Shown in pieces: positions 48,612-63,936 of a stretch of 64,000 nucleotides of DNA (position 1 is the stretch's first letter; each line of letters begins with the position of its first letter). The position numbers and the translations under genes are program-made. A model generated the notes under the pieces. It did not search any database. It was not told the origin of the DNA and was given only the letters and a program-made list of their open reading frames with translations. The stretch is taken from the sequence record OZ035771.1; one strand, 5' to 3'. The DNA is from Phapecoctavirus DIJ07P2.

Positions 48612-49571
48612 TTAGATTCCGATGATAGTTGCTGCTCGTTTATCCTTGGATCTGGTGTTTGCTCTACTACGTGACAAACCTCCGCAAGATTCACAACGAA
48701 TGATATCGAAAGAACTTACCGCAGTGTGGTATTGCTTACCAGTAACAACGTGAACGTGATCACTGCCACAACGAGAACAACGGACCTTCTCATCTGGATA
48801 ATAAGCGGATAAGTTAGGATGTTGTGGAATCCACGGAAGGATTTTCATATACAAATCACGGAGTGAAACAACATCACCATCATTGTAAATCTGCATACGT
48901 TCAAAAGCATCACGATCACCTTCACAACATGCTTTCCATAAAGGGAACCCCTCGTTATCCAGTTTTTCACTTTCTGTTTCGAAATATGCTCCCATTTCTT
49001 TAAGGGAGTTGGAAGGAAGTGCAAATTGTTTCTTAGCTGCCTTCAATGTATCAACAACTACATAGTTAGAAGGAGGAGCCATATCATGATATGCAAATCG
49101 TTGGTTAATATATGCACGGTCAAACTTGTATCCGTTGTGTGCCACAACTACATCTGCCTCATTTAGAAGGTTCCAAAGATCTTGGCAAAGCTCCCAATCA
49201 TCTGTATGATCAATATCAAAAAGAGGATAAGAAGATAAGTTCTTACCTTCCACTTCACCAGTATACAGGTCAGCAGAAGAGTAAGATAACAAATAACCCC
49301 TACGAATTACTTGATCTGGAGAAATGAAGGCTTTGAATCGACGGAAAGTATATGCAATCTCTGGTGCAGTTTCAACATCAATAATTTTAATAACTGGTTG
49401 TTTCTTTTTAACTGGCTCTTGTTTACTTGCTCCGAATCGTGCAAGGAAATCGTTCACTGTGCTTTTTCTTGTTGGACTACCTAAAACAATTGCTGCAATA
49501 TTGCGAGAAGACATACCCTCTGCACTCATACTAAGGATATCTGCTTTCTGCTCTTCTGTTAATCTGCTCAC
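48612..49571 (-). CDS. DnaQ-like 3'-5' exonuclease (DEDDy) with N-terminal HTH and C-terminal zinc ribbon
   Basis: Exo I IIDVETAP, Exo II VAHNGYKFD, Exo III YNDGD; CSRCGSD...CESCGG. Confidence 0.5.
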   Translation of the reverse strand: MSRLTEEQKADILSMSAEGMSSRNIAAIVLGSPTRKSTVNDFLARFGASKQEPVKKKQPVIKIIDVETAPEIAYTFRRFKAFISPDQVIRRGYLLSYSSADLYTGEVEGKNLSSYPLFDIDHTDDWELCQDLWNLLNEADVVVAHNGYKFDRAYINQRFAYHDMAPPSNYVVVDTLKAAKKQFALPSNSLKEMGAYFETESEKLDNEGFPLWKACCEGDRDAFERMQIYNDGDVVSLRDLYMKILPWIPQHPNLSAYYPDEKVRCSRCGSDHVHVVTGKQYHTAVSSFDIIRCESCGGLSRSRANTRSKDKRAATIIGI

Positions 49572-50257
49572 TCTTCCTCCTGTTGCGAGATGTATGACTG
49601 AAGCATACTCTCAAATGTTGTATCGTCATTATCCCAGCGTTTCATGTATACCAACTGGAAAATTGTTTCTATCCATTCGTCTGTTGTCATATGGACTTCT
49701 TCTCCATCCCAAGAAGTAAAATTAACACCATCTGGGAACCATGAGTAGTAAGTATCTTTAACTGTTTGGAAAAGCTCTGCTTGAGTTTTACAAGCTGAAA
49801 GAAGATTAAAACAAGTAATATCTCCAAACTTAATATCAAAATCTTGATAAGGTCGGATACTATCTGTTTTATCTCCCATTAGCATCTGATATGCTAACCA
49901 GTAACTGCCCCAACCTTTAACTTCTTTCTTTTTACCTTTATCTACGATCCATATATCGCCAATAGACTCGTCAATAAGAATTATATCTGGATTTTTAAAT
50001 ACTCCATCCTCTTTGTAGAAATTAAAAAGGATACTAGGAGTATGTAAACTATCTTTATCTATAGACACTACGATATAAGAAAATTTACCCGTCCTTTTAT
50101 AATCTTTATAACCTTGGAAACCATACTTCTCTAACTCATCATCAGCTTCTATTACAGTAACAACATCACCATTGTGGAACTCCACAAGATAATCTTTGGT
50201 TTCTGAAAGCTGAAGTGGTTTGATATCTAATCGTTCAGATTTATATTCTACAGGCAT
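49568..50257 (-). CDS. C-terminal part of an RNase H / 5'-3' exonuclease-like gene
   Basis: in-frame stop-free extension to ~50690 contains TIAAIDYDQIAFQAAS and GVIGVGKTF (H3TH-like); no canonical start in extension. Confidence 0.4.
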   Translation of the reverse strand: MPVEYKSERLDIKPLQLSETKDYLVEFHNGDVVTVIEADDELEKYGFQGYKDYKRTGKFSYIVVSIDKDSLHTPSILFNFYKEDGVFKNPDIILIDESIGDIWIVDKGKKKEVKGWGSYWLAYQMLMGDKTDSIRPYQDFDIKFGDITCFNLLSACKTQAELFQTVKDTYYSWFPDGVNFTSWDGEEVHMTTDEWIETIFQLVYMKRWDNDDTTFESMLQSYISQQEEE

Positions 50258-50698
50258 TTTGAAGGCGTGTCTGAAAGTTTTTCCTACGCCAATAACTCCG
50301 CAATATTTTTCTAAACGTAGATGTTTTAGAATACCTAAGACTTTTGTTTTAGCTGCTTGGAAGGTGTGTCCGATATCTTCTGGCGGGTATTGCTTATCAA
50401 TGATTTCGAACTCTTCCTTTGTGAAGGGACGTTTGTTTTTGGAGGCTCTTTCTGCATTTGTATCTCCTAGCCAACCTCCAATTTTAGTCTTGCTTTTACC
50501 CCAAAACTCTGTCTTATTTTTAAATTCCTTTTGAGCACCTGAAGGGATGTGCTTCGCAATGATTGTTCTTTTCTCTAATGCAGATGCTGCTTGGAAAGCG
50601 ATCTGATCATAATCAATTGCAGCTATTGTTTCTTCGTTGACATATAAATGAAGATCTTCAGGTTTAATTAAAATATAACCGCTAATATTTCCCCCTAA

Positions 50699-50908
50699 TT
50701 ATTCATCGTCATCCTCTGTTGAGAATGTTTTAGTATACGGACATTGACGACTTTTCGGGATTGCTATAACTTCATCTTGGTTAGCGTTAGAATAGTAGCA
50801 ATATTTTGTGTTGCCATTAACTTCAGAATCAGACAAGATTAAAGTAATTTGACCTGCTGCTACTGTGAAACTAAAAGCTAAAAGAACGACTGTCAGAATC
50901 TTTTTCAT
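50699..50908 (-). CDS. small secreted protein (signal peptide, two Cys)
   Basis: MKKILTVVLLAFSFTVAAGQ signal-peptide-like N-terminus; acidic C-terminus. Confidence 0.5.
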   Translation of the reverse strand: MKKILTVVLLAFSFTVAAGQITLILSDSEVNGNTKYCYYSNANQDEVIAIPKSRQCPYTKTFSTEDDDE

Positions 50909-50980
50909 AACGCCTCCTAAAAAGCCTACCTCATTAAGTAGGTAGGCATAATATCATAACTAATCCCGCAAGTCAAGAAC

Positions 50981-51859
50981 TTATTTAAGGATTGTTGCTT
51001 TGGTTAAATCTTCCATCAGACCTCGAATCTCATTGAAGCACAGAAGGACTGAAGCTTCAATACTACCTTCTTCGTCTGCAAAATATTTCGGAAAACGTAG
51101 TTTAGAAAGTTTAAACTCTTTATCCACTACAAAATCTACAACACCGTCATATTCAAGACCGATTGCAACAACATCTTTACCATCTTCTTTTAGTTCGACA
51201 GCTTTAGACTCGTATAGGGATTCTTTACTCCAAACAACAACGCCCTCGCTATCCTCCATTTTGATATAATTTCCGAGAGTAATACGATCTGCTTCGTGAT
51301 TCTCCAGCAATTCACCAAAACCTTTTACAATAGCTTCTTCGTGCACACTAAAACCTACCGAAGGGAAAGTCCCCAGAACGGAACGGAGGAAAGAAGTAAT
51401 CTCTTCTGCAACCTTTTTACTTCCATTAAGAACATAAAGAAGATTCGTAGTTTTATCCAAGACAACATAGTTAAAGAAATCTTCAGGTTCTGTTTCAGGC
51501 AATAGTGCAAATTCAATATCTTCCTTCATTGCTTTGACTACTTCTTTATCGACATAAAACTCTTTACCTTCGCTCTCCATGTCCTGACGCATTTCTTCTA
51601 GCCGTTCATTCAGAATACGTTTAACTTTCTTTTTATCTACCTTCTTCACAGATTGACCTACATTAAGCAGTTCAAGATCTGAGAACTCTTTTACAAATTT
51701 AGAGTCATCTTCGAAACGAACAAGACCGATAGTGTGTGACTGGGAGCCTTCTGCTGTTACAAATTCCAGAGGAATATCTGTAATGCTGTTAAGGGATGCT
51801 ACAGAAGCATTGTCACCAACAACCATAGGCAGAGCGGATTTAAAAGATTTTACAAACAT
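50981..51859 (-). CDS. hypothetical protein (292 aa)
   Basis: track ORF. Confidence 0.5.
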   Translation of the reverse strand: MFVKSFKSALPMVVGDNASVASLNSITDIPLEFVTAEGSQSHTIGLVRFEDDSKFVKEFSDLELLNVGQSVKKVDKKKVKRILNERLEEMRQDMESEGKEFYVDKEVVKAMKEDIEFALLPETEPEDFFNYVVLDKTTNLLYVLNGSKKVAEEITSFLRSVLGTFPSVGFSVHEEAIVKGFGELLENHEADRITLGNYIKMEDSEGVVVWSKESLYESKAVELKEDGKDVVAIGLEYDGVVDFVVDKEFKLSKLRFPKYFADEEGSIEASVLLCFNEIRGLMEDLTKATILK

Positions 51860-61423: not shown

Positions 61424-61498
61424 GGCCCTGTAGCTCAATGGGAGAGCTGTCGGCTCATAACCGATAGGTAGCTGGATCGAAACCAGCCAGGGCCACCA
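61424..61498 (+). tRNA. tRNA-Met (CAT) or Ile2
   Basis: acceptor GGCCCTG/CAGGGCC, anticodon loop CTCATAA, T-arm GCTGG-ATCGAAA-CCAGC, A73, CCA encoded. Confidence 0.75.
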
Positions 61499-61500
61499 AC

Positions 61501-61575
61501 GTCTTTATGGTGTAATGGATAGCACAGGAGTCTTCTAAACTCTTAGTCAAGGTTCGATTCCTTGTAAAGACACCA
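61501..61575 (+). tRNA. tRNA-Arg (TCT)
   Basis: acceptor GTCTTTA/TAAAGAC, anticodon loop CTTCTAA, T-loop TTCGATT. Confidence 0.75.
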
Positions 61576-61771
61576 GAACATTTTAACATGAATTAGCTCA
61601 AGTGATTTGAACCCACTACTGATCATGGTGGCAGAGAATGAGGCAAGTATGTCAGACATTATAAACAAAGGCCACGGTTATATTAGAAGACATAAATGCT
61701 CGAAGAGCACTGTTCGTGGAGAACGGGGGTTGGTGGAGTCACCATTCATGGTAAAATGTTTTAAAAAACTA

Positions 61772-61800
61772 TTGACAACAAGCATTATTTTATGTTAGAT
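61772..61800 (+). promoter_or_regulatory. sigma70-like promoter for downstream tRNAs
   Basis: TTGACA 61772, 17-nt spacer, TTAGAT. Confidence 0.45.
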
Positions 61801-61809
61801 TATAAGTAT

Positions 61810-61900
61810 GGAAGGGCAAATCGACGTGGCGACGAAAACGGTCTTGAAAACCGCCGAGCTTGAAAGAGCCTTGGGAGTTCGACTCTCCCTCCTTCCGCCA
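61810..61900 (+). tRNA. tRNA-Ser (TGA)
   Basis: anticodon arm CGGTCTTGAAAACCG identical to enterobacterial tRNA-Ser(UGA); long variable arm; T-arm GGGAG-TTCGACT-CTCCC. Confidence 0.75.
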
Positions 61901-61905
61901 GATTA

Positions 61906-61991
61906 GGTAGATTGGTGAAATGGTAGCCACGACAGTTTGCTAAACTGTAGTCGGAAACGGCGTGTAGGTTCGAGTCCTACATCTACCGCCA
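61906..61991 (+). tRNA. tRNA-Ser (GCT)
   Basis: acceptor GGTAGAT/ATCTACC, anticodon loop TTGCTAA, long variable arm. Confidence 0.7.
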
Positions 61992-62121
61992 AGTTCTTTT
62001 TAATGTAGCTTACTTTAGCAGAGTAAATCTTCGGCAAGTGGCGGTAACCACTTTACCGATAACTCATAGTTAGTGGTGTGAACACTGGCTATTTTAAAAA
62101 GAATTTAAATATTAGTATTTA

Positions 62122-62209
62122 GGTGAGTTAATTCCGTAGGGGTAGCGGGGCAGACTGTAAATCTGTTATCATTGCGATTCGGGTGGTTCGACTCCATCAC
62201 TCACCACCA
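62122..62209 (+). tRNA. tRNA-Tyr (GTA)
   Basis: acceptor GGTGAGT/ACTCACC, anticodon arm GCAGA-CTGTAAA-TCTGT, long variable arm, A73. Confidence 0.7.
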
Positions 62210-62215
62210 AATTAA

Positions 62216-62301
62216 GATGAGTTGGCTGAATGGTTTAAGCGGCGGACTGTTAATCCGTGTTCGAAAGAACAATATAGGTTCGAATCCTATACTCATCGCC
62301 A
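62216..62301 (+). tRNA. type-II tRNA with Asn anticodon GTT
   Basis: acceptor GATGAGT/ACTCATC, anticodon arm GCGGA-CTGTTAA-TCCGT, 15-nt variable region, G73. Confidence 0.55.
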
Positions 62302-62308
62302 GAATTAT

Positions 62309-62385
62309 GGACTTGTAGAGTTAAGGTAAACCCCCAGTCGCCAATAGGCTTCTGGAATTGCAGGTATCGAATCCTGCCGAGTCCC
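62309..62385 (+). ncRNA. tRNA-like element without canonical anticodon arm
   Basis: acceptor-like GGACTTG/CGAGTCC and T-arm GCAGG-TATCGAAT-CCTGC, but no 5-7-5 anticodon stem-loop and no encoded CCA. Confidence 0.3.
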
Positions 62386-62391
62386 AGCATT

Positions 62392-62466
62392 GCTCCTATA
62401 GTATAATGGCTATTACAACGGTTTTGTAATCCGTGGATCTCTGTTCGATTCAGTGTGGGAGCACCA
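62392..62466 (+). tRNA. tRNA-Thr (TGT)
   Basis: acceptor GCTCCTA/TGGGAGC, anticodon loop TTTGTAA, T-loop TTCGATT, A73. Confidence 0.7.
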
Positions 62467-62741
62467 ACACAACATTAAGAGCACTGTGATTGATCGTCGT
62501 ATCCTGTGCACAAGGTCTGCTCGAAAGACAGTGTTCTTAGTATTGTGTTGATCACAAAAAGAGTCACCCGAAACTTGACCGGAGTAGGGTTGGATGGGGC
62601 AAAATGAGAAGCGGCTCTCCCATCGACAGCAACGAAGAATAATATTTGACTTTGGTTTTGTATTATTTTAAGTTAGCTTACCGAACGTAGGGCTAGTCAC
62701 CCAAAGGGATACTCGTCACTGTCCCACCTATTAAATAACTA

Positions 62742-62771
62742 TTGACATTCGATAGTAAAATGTAGTATAGT
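62742..62771 (+). promoter_or_regulatory. sigma70-like promoter for downstream tRNAs
   Basis: TTGACA 62742, 18-nt spacer, TATAGT. Confidence 0.45.
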
Positions 62772-62788
62772 AAATATATATATACAAA

Positions 62789-62865
62789 GCGTTATTAGTG
62801 TTAGCGGTTCAGCATCCCGTCCTTCCAAGTCGGTGGCATCGGTTCGAATCCGATATAACGCTCCA
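62789..62865 (+). tRNA. tRNA-Gly (TCC)
   Basis: acceptor GCGTTAT/ATAACGC, anticodon loop CTTCCAA, T-arm ATCGG-TTCGAAT-CCGAT, U73. Confidence 0.7.
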
Positions 62866-62963
62866 AATTATTTAATAAAGGGTTGCCAGAAAACTTTCTC
62901 TTTTACTAATGGTTTTCTCTTTCTCTCACACCTCTTCTGGTTGCCCTTCATTAAATGATTTAT

Positions 62964-63039
62964 TGGTTTGTAGTGTAGTCCGGTAGCACACGACACTTTG
63001 ACTGTCGTAGGTTTGGTTCAAATCCAGACAGACCAGCCA
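62964..63039 (+). tRNA. tRNA-Gln (TTG)
   Basis: anticodon arm CGACA-CTTTGAC-TGTCG, T-loop TTCAAAT, G73. Confidence 0.7.
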
Positions 63040-63083
63040 TATAACAAAGGTGAGTCACTACCTTAAGTGCGAAGTTAAAATAT

Positions 63084-63160
63084 ACAGCCTTTAGCTCAAC
63101 CTGGTAGAGTGCATCGTTTGGGGCGATGAAGTTAAAAGTTCGAATCTTTTAAGGCTGACC
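63084..63160 (+). tRNA. tRNA-Pro (TGG)
   Basis: C1:G72 acceptor CAGCCTT/AAGGCTG, anticodon arm CATCG-TTTGGGG-CGATG, T-loop TTCGAAT, A73. Confidence 0.75.
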
Positions 63161-63235
63161 AAATTACAATTCCATGCGTCTGACAAAAGGTTAGTCGGTA
63201 TAAGACGTGGGATTTAATACTTATAAGGAGGACTT

Positions 63236-63577
63236 ATGTATAAATGTAGCCATTGTGGTGAAGAAGATCCGCAAAAGTTCTACGGTCATAAGAAATCTAT
63301 TTGTGGTTATTGTCATAATAAGTATACAATAGACTTAGGACAACAGAAAAAGAAGTATGCTCGTGATAAGTTAGGTGGTAAGTGTGTTTCCTGCGGTTAC
63401 GATAAATATCAGGAAGCTTTAGATATACACCATCTTGATCCGACAATAAAAGACCGGAGTTTCGCATCCATGCGTGGGTGGTCGCTTAAGAGGATTGATA
63501 AAGAGATAGAGAACTGCATCTTACTATGTAAGAACTGTCATTCAGCTTTCCATTCTGGTCATGATATTACTTGGTAG
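63236..63577 (+). CDS. HNH endonuclease within tRNA cluster
   Basis: CSHCG...CGYCH...DIHHLDP...CKNCH; AAGGAGG RBS. Confidence 0.75.
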   Translation: MYKCSHCGEEDPQKFYGHKKSICGYCHNKYTIDLGQQKKKYARDKLGGKCVSCGYDKYQEALDIHHLDPTIKDRSFASMRGWSLKRIDKEIENCILLCKNCHSAFHSGHDITW

Positions 63578-63591
63578 TAATACTAATTAAA

Positions 63592-63665
63592 TGTTTCGTA
63601 GTTCAATGGTAGAACCCACGACTGATAATCGTGAGACACAAGTTCGATTCTTGTCGAAACAACCA
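63592..63665 (+). tRNA. tRNA-Ile (GAT)
   Basis: acceptor TGTTTCG/CGAAACA, anticodon arm CACGA-CTGATAA-TCGTG, T-loop TTCGATT, A73. Confidence 0.7.
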
Positions 63666-63667
63666 GT

Positions 63668-63737
63668 TTCCCGTTAGACTTACAGGATAAGAGATCCACA
63701 ATTTATTGTGACGCTGGTTCGAATCCAGCACGGGATA
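63668..63737 (+). ncRNA. tRNA-like element with degenerate anticodon arm
   Basis: T-arm GCTGG-TTCGAAT-CCAGC and acceptor-like TTCCCGT/ACGGGAT (1-72 mismatch), middle forms CACAA-ttta-TTGTG instead of an anticodon arm. Confidence 0.3.
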
Positions 63738-63742
63738 CATAA

Positions 63743-63821
63743 TAGCGGGATAGAGGAGTCTGGTCGTCCTCGCCAGTTTCATATGCTGGAGATCATTGGT
63801 TCAAATCCAATTCCCGCCTCC
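63743..63821 (+). tRNA. tRNA with CAT anticodon (second Met/Ile2-type)
   Basis: anticodon arm CCAGT-TTCATAT-GCTGG, T-arm ATTGG-TTCAAAT-CCAAT, A1-C72 mismatch, U73. Confidence 0.6.
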
Positions 63822-63936
63822 AAATATCGCTTGCCAGCGGTATCTTTGAAGACCTTGCCTGGTTCCTTCTAAGATGGAGGGGTGCGACTCCTTAACGCAC
63901 AATCATAATAAAACATTTCAAATTAACAGTATTTAT

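What the first reader, a model, noticed from the sequence alone, without database searches (positions are those of the whole stretch)
49568..50698. RNase H / 5'-3' exonuclease-like gene whose N-terminal third has no canonical start codon and is in frame with the upstream gene
Upstream of the annotated ATG (50257) the same frame stays open for about 440 nt and encodes protein-like sequence including TIAAIDYDQIAFQAAS and a helix-3-turn-helix-like GVIGVGKTF, both reminiscent of T4 RNase H / FEN-type nucleases. That extension has no in-frame ATG, GTG or TTG and runs straight on from the TAA stop of the small secreted-protein gene (50699-50908). Options are initiation at a rare codon (an ATT lies 3-4 nt after GGGGGA), stop-codon read-through, or a sequencing error. 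My hand-derived coordinates here may be off by one.
Basis: partly seen in the sequence, partly recalled or inferred. Interest (0 to 1): 0.45.

Follow-up and report, generated by a model that had tools for sequence, protein, structure and literature searches.

The report
Phage exonuclease gene starting at ATT
A phage DNA-repair/replication nuclease gene that public databases record as a truncated 229-residue protein is really a 372-residue flap-endonuclease-type enzyme whose translation must begin at a rare non-standard start codon (ATT), a feature conserved (as ATT, ATC, ATA or CTG) across its whole phage subfamily.

Summary
On the minus strand the frame is open from 50698 to the stop at 49568, and there is no ATG, GTG or TTG before Met144 (ATG 50257). 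The window is a phAPEC8-like Escherichia phage (Phapecoctavirus, Stephanstirmvirinae).

The 143-codon "extension" is real coding sequence:
- It is homologous over its full length to exonucleases of many phages.
- It is under purifying selection.
- It carries invariant Asp25 and Arg139.

The start is best placed at ATT 50686-50684, 4 nt after the Shine-Dalgarno sequence AGGGGG. Four nt is the modal spacing in this phage. All 27 distinct relatives at 50% identity or more carry ATT, ATC, ATA or CTG at this position behind GGAGG, and none carries a canonical codon. More distant orthologues have TTG, GTG or ATG there. One relative has an in-frame TAA directly before its ATC, and in phi92 the upstream gene lies in another frame. 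Read-through and sequencing error are therefore excluded.

Every GenBank record inspected mis-annotates the gene. Initiation at ATT is inferred, not shown by proteomics. This is a new, clade-wide example of infC/pcnB-type near-cognate initiation and is moderately interesting.

The parts
49568..50686 (-). Full-length 5'-3' exonuclease (FEN / T4 RNase H-like) CDS: 372 codons plus TGA, beginning at ATT.
50684..50686 (-). Proposed start codon ATT (near-cognate, decoded as fMet).
   Evidence: It lies 4 nt after GGGGG, and 4 nt is the modal SD-start spacer in this window (28 of 53 SD-led genes). It is the only SD + near-cognate site in the window that opens a long ORF. The homologous codon is ATT, ATC, ATA or CTG in all 27 distinct relatives at 50% identity or more, and TTG, GTG or ATG in more distant ones.
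50691..50696 (-). Shine-Dalgarno sequence AGGGGG (AGGAGG with one G.U wobble).
   Evidence: Sequence. Relatives have GGAGG or GGGGG at the same place. Another gene in the window uses AAGGGGGACTT-ATG with the same spacing.
50258..50683 (-). N-terminal 'extension' (residues 2-143) that all public annotations omit. It contains invariant D25 (50614-50612), near-invariant D27 and invariant R139.
   Evidence: Invariant columns in 34- and 46-sequence alignments. Purifying selection against phi92: pN = 82.7/336.7 and pS = 71.3/89.3. For the first 30 codons against L013, Nd = 6.0/69.5 and Sd = 17.0/17.5. Block pLDDT in the model is 88-98.
50255..50257 (-). ATG used as the start in GenBank/RefSeq records. 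It is in fact internal Met144, with no SD upstream (cacgccttcaaaATG).
   Evidence: Annotations of phAPEC8, iGC_PHA_EC001 and WPEC4. It falls inside the region matched by Pfam PF02739 in homologues, and inside the hhalign match to T4 RNase H residues 48-160.
50699..50908 (-). Upstream small gene (69 aa, signal peptide, two Cys). Its stop TAA (50701-50699) lies 12 nt before the ATT and abuts the SD, so translational coupling is likely.
   Evidence: ORF list. PHROG 4641, E 7e-27. The phi92 homologue gp086 is annotated with a signal peptide. A short gene ends within or next to the SD in Stephanstirmvirinae relatives.
50924..50976 (-). Promoter-like site (TTGACT-17-TATTAT with TG) followed by a G+C-rich hairpin and a T run, just upstream of the small gene. 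It is the probable start of the small-gene / exonuclease / DnaQ-like operon.
   Evidence: Consensus scan only. A promoter is annotated at the equivalent place in Klebsiella phage FBKp34.
48612..49571 (-). Downstream DnaQ-like 3'-5' exonuclease gene. Its GTG overlaps the exonuclease stop (GTGA), and its SD GGAGG + 4 nt lies in the last codons of the exonuclease.
   Evidence: ORF list. Pfam RNase_H_2, E 9.5e-10. Weak NCBIfam DnaQ/epsilon hits. SD table.

Best explanation
The gene at 50686-49568 (-) encodes a complete 372-residue flap-endonuclease / T4 RNase H-type 5'-3' exonuclease. It sits in the phage's replication-recombination module: RdgC-like gene, small secreted protein, this exonuclease, then a DnaQ-like exonuclease.

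Translation starts at the near-cognate codon AUU (50686-50684). A strong Shine-Dalgarno sequence 4 nt upstream positions it in the ribosomal P site, and initiator tRNA decodes it as fMet. Ribosomes terminating at the upstream gene's stop 12 nt away probably help (de novo initiation plus re-initiation, as at thrS-infC).

AUU, AUC, AUA and CUG initiate at only about 1-2% of AUG in E. coli. The likely purpose is therefore to keep synthesis of a potentially harmful nuclease low, and possibly to make it sensitive to IF3 or initiator-tRNA status.

Shown here: the ORF anatomy, the homology, the fold, the conservation and the SD geometry. Inferred: that AUU is the codon actually used. Speculative: the reason for it.
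For: 1. No canonical start exists before Met144. Yet residues 1-143 are homologous to full-length exonucleases, are under purifying selection, and contain invariant D25 and R139. They form part of a single high-confidence FEN fold.

2. ATT lies 4 nt after GGGGG, the modal spacing of this phage (28 of 53). It is the only SD + near-cognate site in the window that opens a long ORF (372 codons; the next is 74).

3. Census of relatives:
- At 50% identity or more there are 27 distinct sequences. The scan places 26 behind GGAGG/GGGGG: ATT 16, ATC 5, ATA 4, CTG 1. L132 has ATT behind a weaker GTAGGAAAG.
- None of the 27 has a canonical codon at this position.
- Orthologues below 50% identity have TTG (rV5-like phages, L195), GTG or ATG at the same alignment position (for example CR8: GAGGAGTGAGTA-ATG-GGT-TAT).

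4. L013 reads gaa TAG GAG GAG TAA ATC GGT TAC. Its ORF opens exactly at that codon, and the next canonical start comes after the catalytic DxD motif.

5. In phi92 the upstream gene is in a different frame.

6. The four codons seen are exactly the class 'AUA, AUC, AUU and CUG ... 1%-2% of AUG' reported by Hecht et al. (bioRxiv 10.1101/063800). infC has the same stop-then-AUU arrangement, with re-initiation contributing about half of its translation (PMC3592434).
Against: - There is no direct evidence of the N-terminus: no proteomics or ribosome profiling was available or found.
- A few relatives have an in-frame TTG, GTG or ATG 9-19 codons upstream of D25 that could serve as an alternative start. 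The window itself has none.
- No significant RNA structure marks the site (z = -1.17).
- The rationale (low expression or regulation) is untested.
- Pfam does not recognise the window protein directly.
Confidence: 0.85

Rival explanations
1. Stop-codon read-through (or a frameshift) from the upstream small secreted-protein gene produces a fusion that supplies the N-terminus.
For: In the window the small gene's TAA is in frame with the extension. One database protein (P0005, 444 aa) looks like such a fusion.
Against: - In phi92 the small gene (stop at L004 590-592) is out of frame with the ATT at 601.
- L013 has TAG and then an in-frame TAA directly before ATC.
- CR8, rV5-like phages and L195 have unrelated upstream genes and ordinary starts at the same position.
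- P0005's DNA carries a real TAG that the gene caller read as Q, so it is an artefact.
- Fusing a signal peptide to a cytoplasmic nuclease makes no functional sense.
Confidence: 0.02
2. Sequencing or assembly error, or a decaying pseudogene; the real protein is the annotated 229-residue product from ATG 50257.
For: All GenBank/RefSeq records of phAPEC8-like phages annotate the 229-aa product. There is no Pfam hit on the window protein.
Against: - The same sequence occurs in 64 independent records at 95% identity or more and in metagenomes.
- The extension is under purifying selection while synonymous sites are saturated.
- Invariant D25 and R139 lie in the extension.
- ATG 50257 has no SD. It falls in the middle of the PF02739-type domain and of the region that aligns with T4 RNase H residues 48-160.
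- The AF2 model needs residues 1-143 for the core sheet.
Confidence: 0.03
3. Initiation occurs at another non-canonical codon further downstream (for example ATT at codon 5 or 7, or ATA at codon 21) rather than at 50686.
For: Several ATT/ATA codons follow in frame. Near-cognate initiation is weak anyway.
Against: None of them has an SD at a workable distance. The ATT at codon 5 is 16 nt from the SD, whereas spacers of 4-6 nt account for 39 of the 53 SD-led genes in the window. Only the 50686 position is conserved as a near-cognate/canonical codon at a fixed distance from the SD in all relatives. The residues right after it ((S)GY...) are conserved down to Certrevirus, which has M-G-Y.
Confidence: 0.07

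Closest known systems
E. coli infC (IF3) and pcnB: the two confirmed AUU-initiated E. coli genes
   Same: A near-cognate AUU start behind an SD. Like infC, the start lies a few nucleotides after the stop of the preceding cistron (UAA GGU AUU in infC; UAA-12 nt-AUU here). Like pcnB, the product is an enzyme plausibly harmful in excess.
   Different: This is a phage gene. Across its clade the codon drifts among all four near-cognates (AUU, AUC, AUA, CUG), and the SD is much stronger. IF3 autoregulation (infC) is neither expected nor tested here.
T4 RNase H, T5 D15 flap endonuclease, E. coli ExoIX, mycobacterial FenA (FEN / 5'-3' exonuclease superfamily; Pfam PF02739 + PF01367)
   Different: It is about 70-130 residues longer than the bacterial and phage FENs matched (239-300 residues), with an insertion of roughly 55-60 residues after the first strand-helix. 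It is too divergent for Pfam or PDB sequence searches. The position equivalent to T4 D71 appears to be Gly (tentative, because the T4 sequence was recalled from memory).
Orthologous exonucleases of Vequintavirinae (rV5-like, Certrevirus, PVP-SE1-like phages)
   Same: 37-43% identical over the full length, with the same N-terminal position for the start.
   Different: They start at canonical codons, though often weak ones: TTG in rV5-like phages, GTG or TTG in several others, and ATG in Certrevirus.

Membership tests
FEN / 5'-3' exonuclease superfamily (T4 RNase H, T5 D15, Pol I 5' nuclease) | PIN-like alpha/beta FEN fold | tested here: met
FEN / 5'-3' exonuclease superfamily (T4 RNase H, T5 D15, Pol I 5' nuclease) | Set of conserved active-site carboxylates, including the first Asp on strand 1 | tested here: met
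   D25, E180, D182, D183, D210, D212, D272 and D275 are invariant, and D27 is at least 90% conserved. EADD aligns with T4 YEADD (D132) and DKD with T4 DGD (D155/D157) (the T4 sequence was recalled from memory). The equivalent of T4 D71 was not found (Gly).
FEN / 5'-3' exonuclease superfamily (T4 RNase H, T5 D15, Pol I 5' nuclease) | Match to Pfam PF02739 / PF01367 above the gathering score | tested here: not met
   The window protein has no hit. PF02739 matches 15 of 46 homologues, but only below threshold: best E 1.7e-6, 28.3 bits against a cut-off of 34.3. This is a divergent branch recognised by fold, not by the curated sequence model.
FEN / 5'-3' exonuclease superfamily (T4 RNase H, T5 D15, Pol I 5' nuclease) | Metal-dependent 5' flap / 5'-3' exonuclease activity | not testable with these tools
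   Needs biochemistry.
Genes initiated at near-cognate non-canonical codons (infC / pcnB type) | No ATG/GTG/TTG available upstream of indispensable residues | tested here: met
   147 codons have no canonical start, and invariant D25 lies 119 codons upstream of the first ATG.
Genes initiated at near-cognate non-canonical codons (infC / pcnB type) | Near-cognate codon at functional spacing from a Shine-Dalgarno sequence | tested here: met
   AGGGGG + 4 nt + ATT, and 4 nt is the modal spacing in the window. It is unique in the window.
Genes initiated at near-cognate non-canonical codons (infC / pcnB type) | Position homologous to the start codon of orthologues and conserved as a start-competent codon | tested here: met
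   ATT, ATC, ATA or CTG in 27 of 27 distinct relatives at 50% identity or more; TTG, GTG or ATG in more distant ones. L013 has an in-frame TAA directly upstream.
Genes initiated at near-cognate non-canonical codons (infC / pcnB type) | Protein N-terminus (fMet) mapped to that codon; dependence on IF3 | not testable with these tools
   No proteomic or ribosome-profiling data were found.
Programmed stop-codon read-through / recoding | Upstream ORF conserved in frame, with a single leaky stop | tested here: not met
   The phi92 upstream gene is out of frame. L013 has two stops. Distant orthologues have other neighbours.

The most novel reading that the evidence does not exclude
The near-cognate start is a regulatory device rather than a simple throttle. 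On this reading, translation of the exonuclease responds to start-codon stringency (the ratio of IF3 to ribosomes) as infection proceeds. It might also depend on the phage's own initiator-like tRNA (63744-63822). That tRNA has the 1:72 mismatch and A11:U24 of initiator tRNAs but retains only one of the three anticodon-stem G:C pairs that IF3 inspects. This would be the first phage example of infC-like start-codon control, coupled to a phage-encoded initiator tRNA.
Probability: 0.1. Interest if true: 0.75.

Novelty: new member of a known kind. Interest (0 to 1): 0.45.

Why it matters
1. It corrects a systematic annotation error. More than 130 sequenced Stephanstirmvirinae genomes (phAPEC8-, phi92- and Klebsiella-phage-like, many of them phage-therapy candidates) match this gene. 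Every record inspected lists it as truncated (229-253 aa) or started at an arbitrary internal GTG/TTG. Spurious small ORFs often fill the gap.

2. Natural bacterial-type genes with confirmed non-canonical starts are very few; in E. coli only infC and pcnB are confirmed. Here a whole clade keeps a near-cognate start and lets it wander among AUU, AUC, AUA and CUG without any sampled lineage carrying AUG. That argues for selection for very weak or conditional initiation, and it provides a natural allelic series for studying start-codon stringency.

3. It shows that gene callers restricted to ATG/GTG/TTG can decapitate conserved enzymes.

Tried and rejected
- Pfam and NCBIfam on the window protein gave nothing useful.
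- phmmer and profile searches of PDB sequences gave no FEN hit. Fold comparison was needed instead.
- RNA folding around the start gave no significant structure (z = -1.17).
- The apparent natural fusion protein P0005 was followed up and shown to be a gene-calling artefact: its DNA has a TAG that was read as Gln.
- Felix O1-like phages matched only residues 147-359 by tblastn, which raised the possibility of a split or truncated gene. Their annotated gene is full-length (346 aa) with a merely diverged N-terminus.
- Seven literature searches and the follow-up reads found no description of this gene's start codon.
- dN/dS could not be given as a ratio because synonymous sites are saturated; raw proportions are reported instead.
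- The whole window was scanned for other genes lacking a canonical start. None was convincing.

Full report
**Identity of the window and check of the observation**

The region 49400-51100 is 99.5% identical to Escherichia phage vB_EcoM_ESCO25 and matches 63 other phAPEC8-like phages at 95% identity or more (Phapecoctavirus, Stephanstirmvirinae).

On the minus strand the small gene 50908-50699 ends with TAA at 50701-50699. The same frame then continues as TTA GGG GGA AAT ATT AGC GGT TAT ... It runs without any ATG, GTG or TTG down to ATG 50257 (Met144 of the conceptual protein) and on to TGA at 49570-49568.

A scan of all six frames shows this is the extreme case in the window. It has 147 codons without a canonical start in a 376-codon open frame. 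The next case has 48 such codons in a 129-codon frame.

**The extension is coding and indispensable**

- *Homology.* tblastn of the 372-residue conceptual protein, read from the ATT, finds 1230 phage records. Of these, 900 cover at least 80% of it, starting at residues 1-20. Examples are phi92 at 78%, Klebsiella phi1_175008 at 75%, CR8 at 41%, rV5-like phages at 37%, ICP1 at 29% and PAK_P1 at 26%.
- *Family assignment.* PHROG 107 ("exonuclease") matches at E 1.3e-55, and the extension alone matches at E 5e-7.
- *Invariant residues.* In alignments of 34 and 46 homologues the invariant residues include D25 and R139, both inside the extension. The others are Y148, K149, E180, D182, D183, D210, K211, D212, D272 and D275.
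- *Selection.* Against phi92, the extension shows 71.3 synonymous differences per 89.3 synonymous sites, which is saturated, but only 82.7 per 336.7 non-synonymous sites. For the first 30 codons against L013 the figures are 17.0/17.5 and 6.0/69.5. Protein-level constraint therefore starts right after the ATT.
- *Fold.* AlphaFold2 on the 46-sequence alignment gives pLDDT 95.8 and pTM 0.90, with the N-terminal blocks at 88-98.
  - Exo1, FEN-1, XPG and GEN1 follow.

  Foldseek agrees.
- *Where the annotated start falls.* Pfam PF02739 matches 15 of 46 homologues below threshold. The matches cover profile positions of about 28-146, a region that straddles the annotated Met144. A profile alignment to T4 RNase H pairs YKSER with YKKNR, IEADD with YEADD and SIDKD with SSDGD.

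A protein starting at Met144 would lack about the first third of the catalytic domain. ATG 50257 also has no Shine-Dalgarno sequence.

**Where translation starts**

Genes in this window that have a GGAGG or GGGGG motif overwhelmingly place their start codon exactly 4 nt after the last G (28 of 53). The exonuclease ATT (50686-50684) sits exactly 4 nt after AGGGGG. It is the only place in the window where such a motif is followed at 4-5 nt by ATT, ATC, ATA or CTG opening a long ORF. That ORF has 372 codons. The runner-up has 74 and is an ordinary ATG gene.

Comparative data are decisive. I collected relatives from isolate genomes, IMG/VR, metagenomes and Logan/ENA assemblies. I then located, in each distinct sequence, the in-frame codon 4-5 nt after GGAGG/GGGGG upstream of the D25 motif.

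| Identity to the window protein | Codon at the homologous start position |
|---|---|
| 50% or more (27 distinct sequences) | ATT in 16, ATC in 5, ATA in 4, CTG in 1, always 23-25 codons before D25; plus L132, ATT behind a weaker GTAGGAAAG. None has a canonical codon. |
| Below 50% | TTG (L195, the rV5-like phages and several others), GTG or ATG (Certrevirus: GAGGAGTGAGTA-ATG-GGT-TAT) |

The residues that follow are homologous across groups: (M)SGYILI, (M)GYILIE, (M)SKFETI and MGYPVVE.

Three further observations exclude the alternatives:

- L013 reads gaa-TAG-GAG-GAG-TAA-ATC-GGT-TAC. Its frame opens exactly at the ATC, and its first canonical codon lies after the catalytic motif.
- In phi92 the upstream gene's TAG (L004 590-592) is out of frame with the ATT at 601. 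Read-through is therefore not a conserved option.
- The one database protein that looked like a fusion (P0005) derives from DNA with a genuine TAG that a gene caller translated as Gln.

Sequencing error is excluded by conservation in more than 130 isolate genomes.

**Mechanism**

AUA, AUC, AUU and CUG are exactly the four near-cognate codons that initiate at 1-2% of AUG in E. coli. Only infC and pcnB, both AUU, are confirmed natural cases there (Hecht et al., bioRxiv 10.1101/063800). Initiation at such codons yields N-terminal Met (same source).

The arrangement here is a stop codon within or abutting the SD, followed 9-15 nt later by the near-cognate codon. It resembles thrS-infC (UAA GGU AUU), where re-initiation and de novo initiation contribute about equally (PMC3592434).

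I infer three things:

- The strong SD and the terminating ribosomes from the small upstream ORF make initiation at AUU possible.
- The weak codon holds down synthesis of a nuclease.
- The Vequintavirinae orthologues, which frequently use TTG or GTG, show the same tendency in milder form.

In one pair of close relatives the codon differs at two positions: ATA in L014 and CTG in L015. The single-step intermediates would be ATG or a non-start codon. No sampled lineage has ATG, which hints at selection against a strong start. This is inference only.

**State of the public record**

- phAPEC8 RefSeq, iGC_PHA_EC001, WPEC4, Klebsiella phi1_175008 and FKP3 annotate the 229-aa product.
- Citrobacter Tr1 starts at an ATG at codon 124.
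- phi92 and PaulScherrer start at a GTG after the DxD motif. The phi92 note reads "No RBS identified; weak Prodigal statistics".
- phiWec186, FBKp34 and 05F01 start at internal TTGs.
- Some records fill the gap with small out-of-frame "hypothetical proteins", for example YP_007348489.1, which corresponds to window 50335-50457.
- Seven literature searches and the follow-up reads found no description of this start codon.

**Verdict**

It has not been demonstrated experimentally.

The gene product is an ordinary, though divergent, FEN-type exonuclease. What is unusual is the clade-wide conserved near-cognate initiation codon and the resulting systematic mis-annotation. I rate it a new member of a known kind (infC/pcnB-type non-canonical initiation) with interest 0.45.

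The more novel possibility is a stringency-sensing start codon linked to the phage's initiator-like tRNA. It is not excluded and remains speculative.

Noticed in passing
window 63744-63822 (+): A tRNA called tRNA-Met(CAT) aligns along its whole length with E. coli initiator tRNA-fMet (that sequence was recalled from memory). It shows initiator hallmarks by eye: an A1xC72 mismatch and A11:T24. It keeps only G30:C40 of the three anticodon-stem G:C pairs. Homologues occur in phi92-like phages (annotated tRNA-fMet in PaulScherrer), in Klebsiella phi1_175008 (with compensatory stem changes), and in Erwinia phiEa104 and Caulobacter phiCbK. Any link to the near-cognate start is pure speculation.
   Followed up: partly
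window 61424-61498 (+): The other tRNA-Met(CAT) of the 10-tRNA cluster (61424-63822) has a paired G1:C72. From memory it resembles E. coli tRNA-Ile2 (lysidine-modified, reads AUA), so it may be mis-named.
   Followed up: no
window 50335-50457 (-) and 50467-50559 (-): Short out-of-frame ORFs inside the exonuclease N-terminal region are annotated as hypothetical proteins in several GenBank records (for example phAPEC8 G377_gp266, WPEC4 CDS215/216). They are almost certainly artefacts of the missed start.
   Followed up: yes
L192 (Logan SRR30397360 contig), protein P0005: A 444-aa 'fusion' of the small secreted protein and the exonuclease is present in the protein database (48 member sequences). 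It results from a gene caller translating a genuine in-frame TAG as Gln. The DNA reads GAA TAG GAG GGT AAT ATC.
   Followed up: yes
window 50699-50908 (-): A small gene (69 aa) encodes a signal peptide, two cysteines and an acidic C-terminus (PHROG 4641, unknown function). It is conserved immediately upstream of the exonuclease in Stephanstirmvirinae, and its stop codon lies within or next to the exonuclease SD. A secreted protein is an odd member of a replication/recombination operon.
   Followed up: partly
window 50924-50976 (-): A sigma-70-like promoter (TTGACT-17-TATTAT, extended -10 TG) is followed directly by a G+C-rich hairpin and T run, then the SD of the small gene. The hairpin could terminate the upstream rdgC-like transcript or serve as a 5' stabilising stem-loop. 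A similar arrangement is visible in Klebsiella phi1_175008.
   Followed up: no
whole window, both strands: The SD-to-start geometry is unusually rigid. Of 53 ORFs of at least 60 codons preceded by GGAGG/GGGGG, 28 have exactly 4 nt between the last G and the start codon.
   Followed up: yes
window 49568-49571 (-): The exonuclease stop and the GTG start of the downstream DnaQ-like exonuclease overlap as GTGA, with that gene's SD inside the last exonuclease codons. Some records (WPEC4, Tr1, FKP3, 05F01) instead annotate a later start about 40 nt downstream for that gene.
   Followed up: no
window residues 131-139 of the exonuclease (about 50296-50270): In the hhalign match to T4 RNase H (sequence recalled from memory), the position of catalytic D71 is occupied by Gly (VIGVG), which is near-invariant in the family. 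This branch of FEN nucleases may therefore lack one canonical carboxylate.
   Followed up: no
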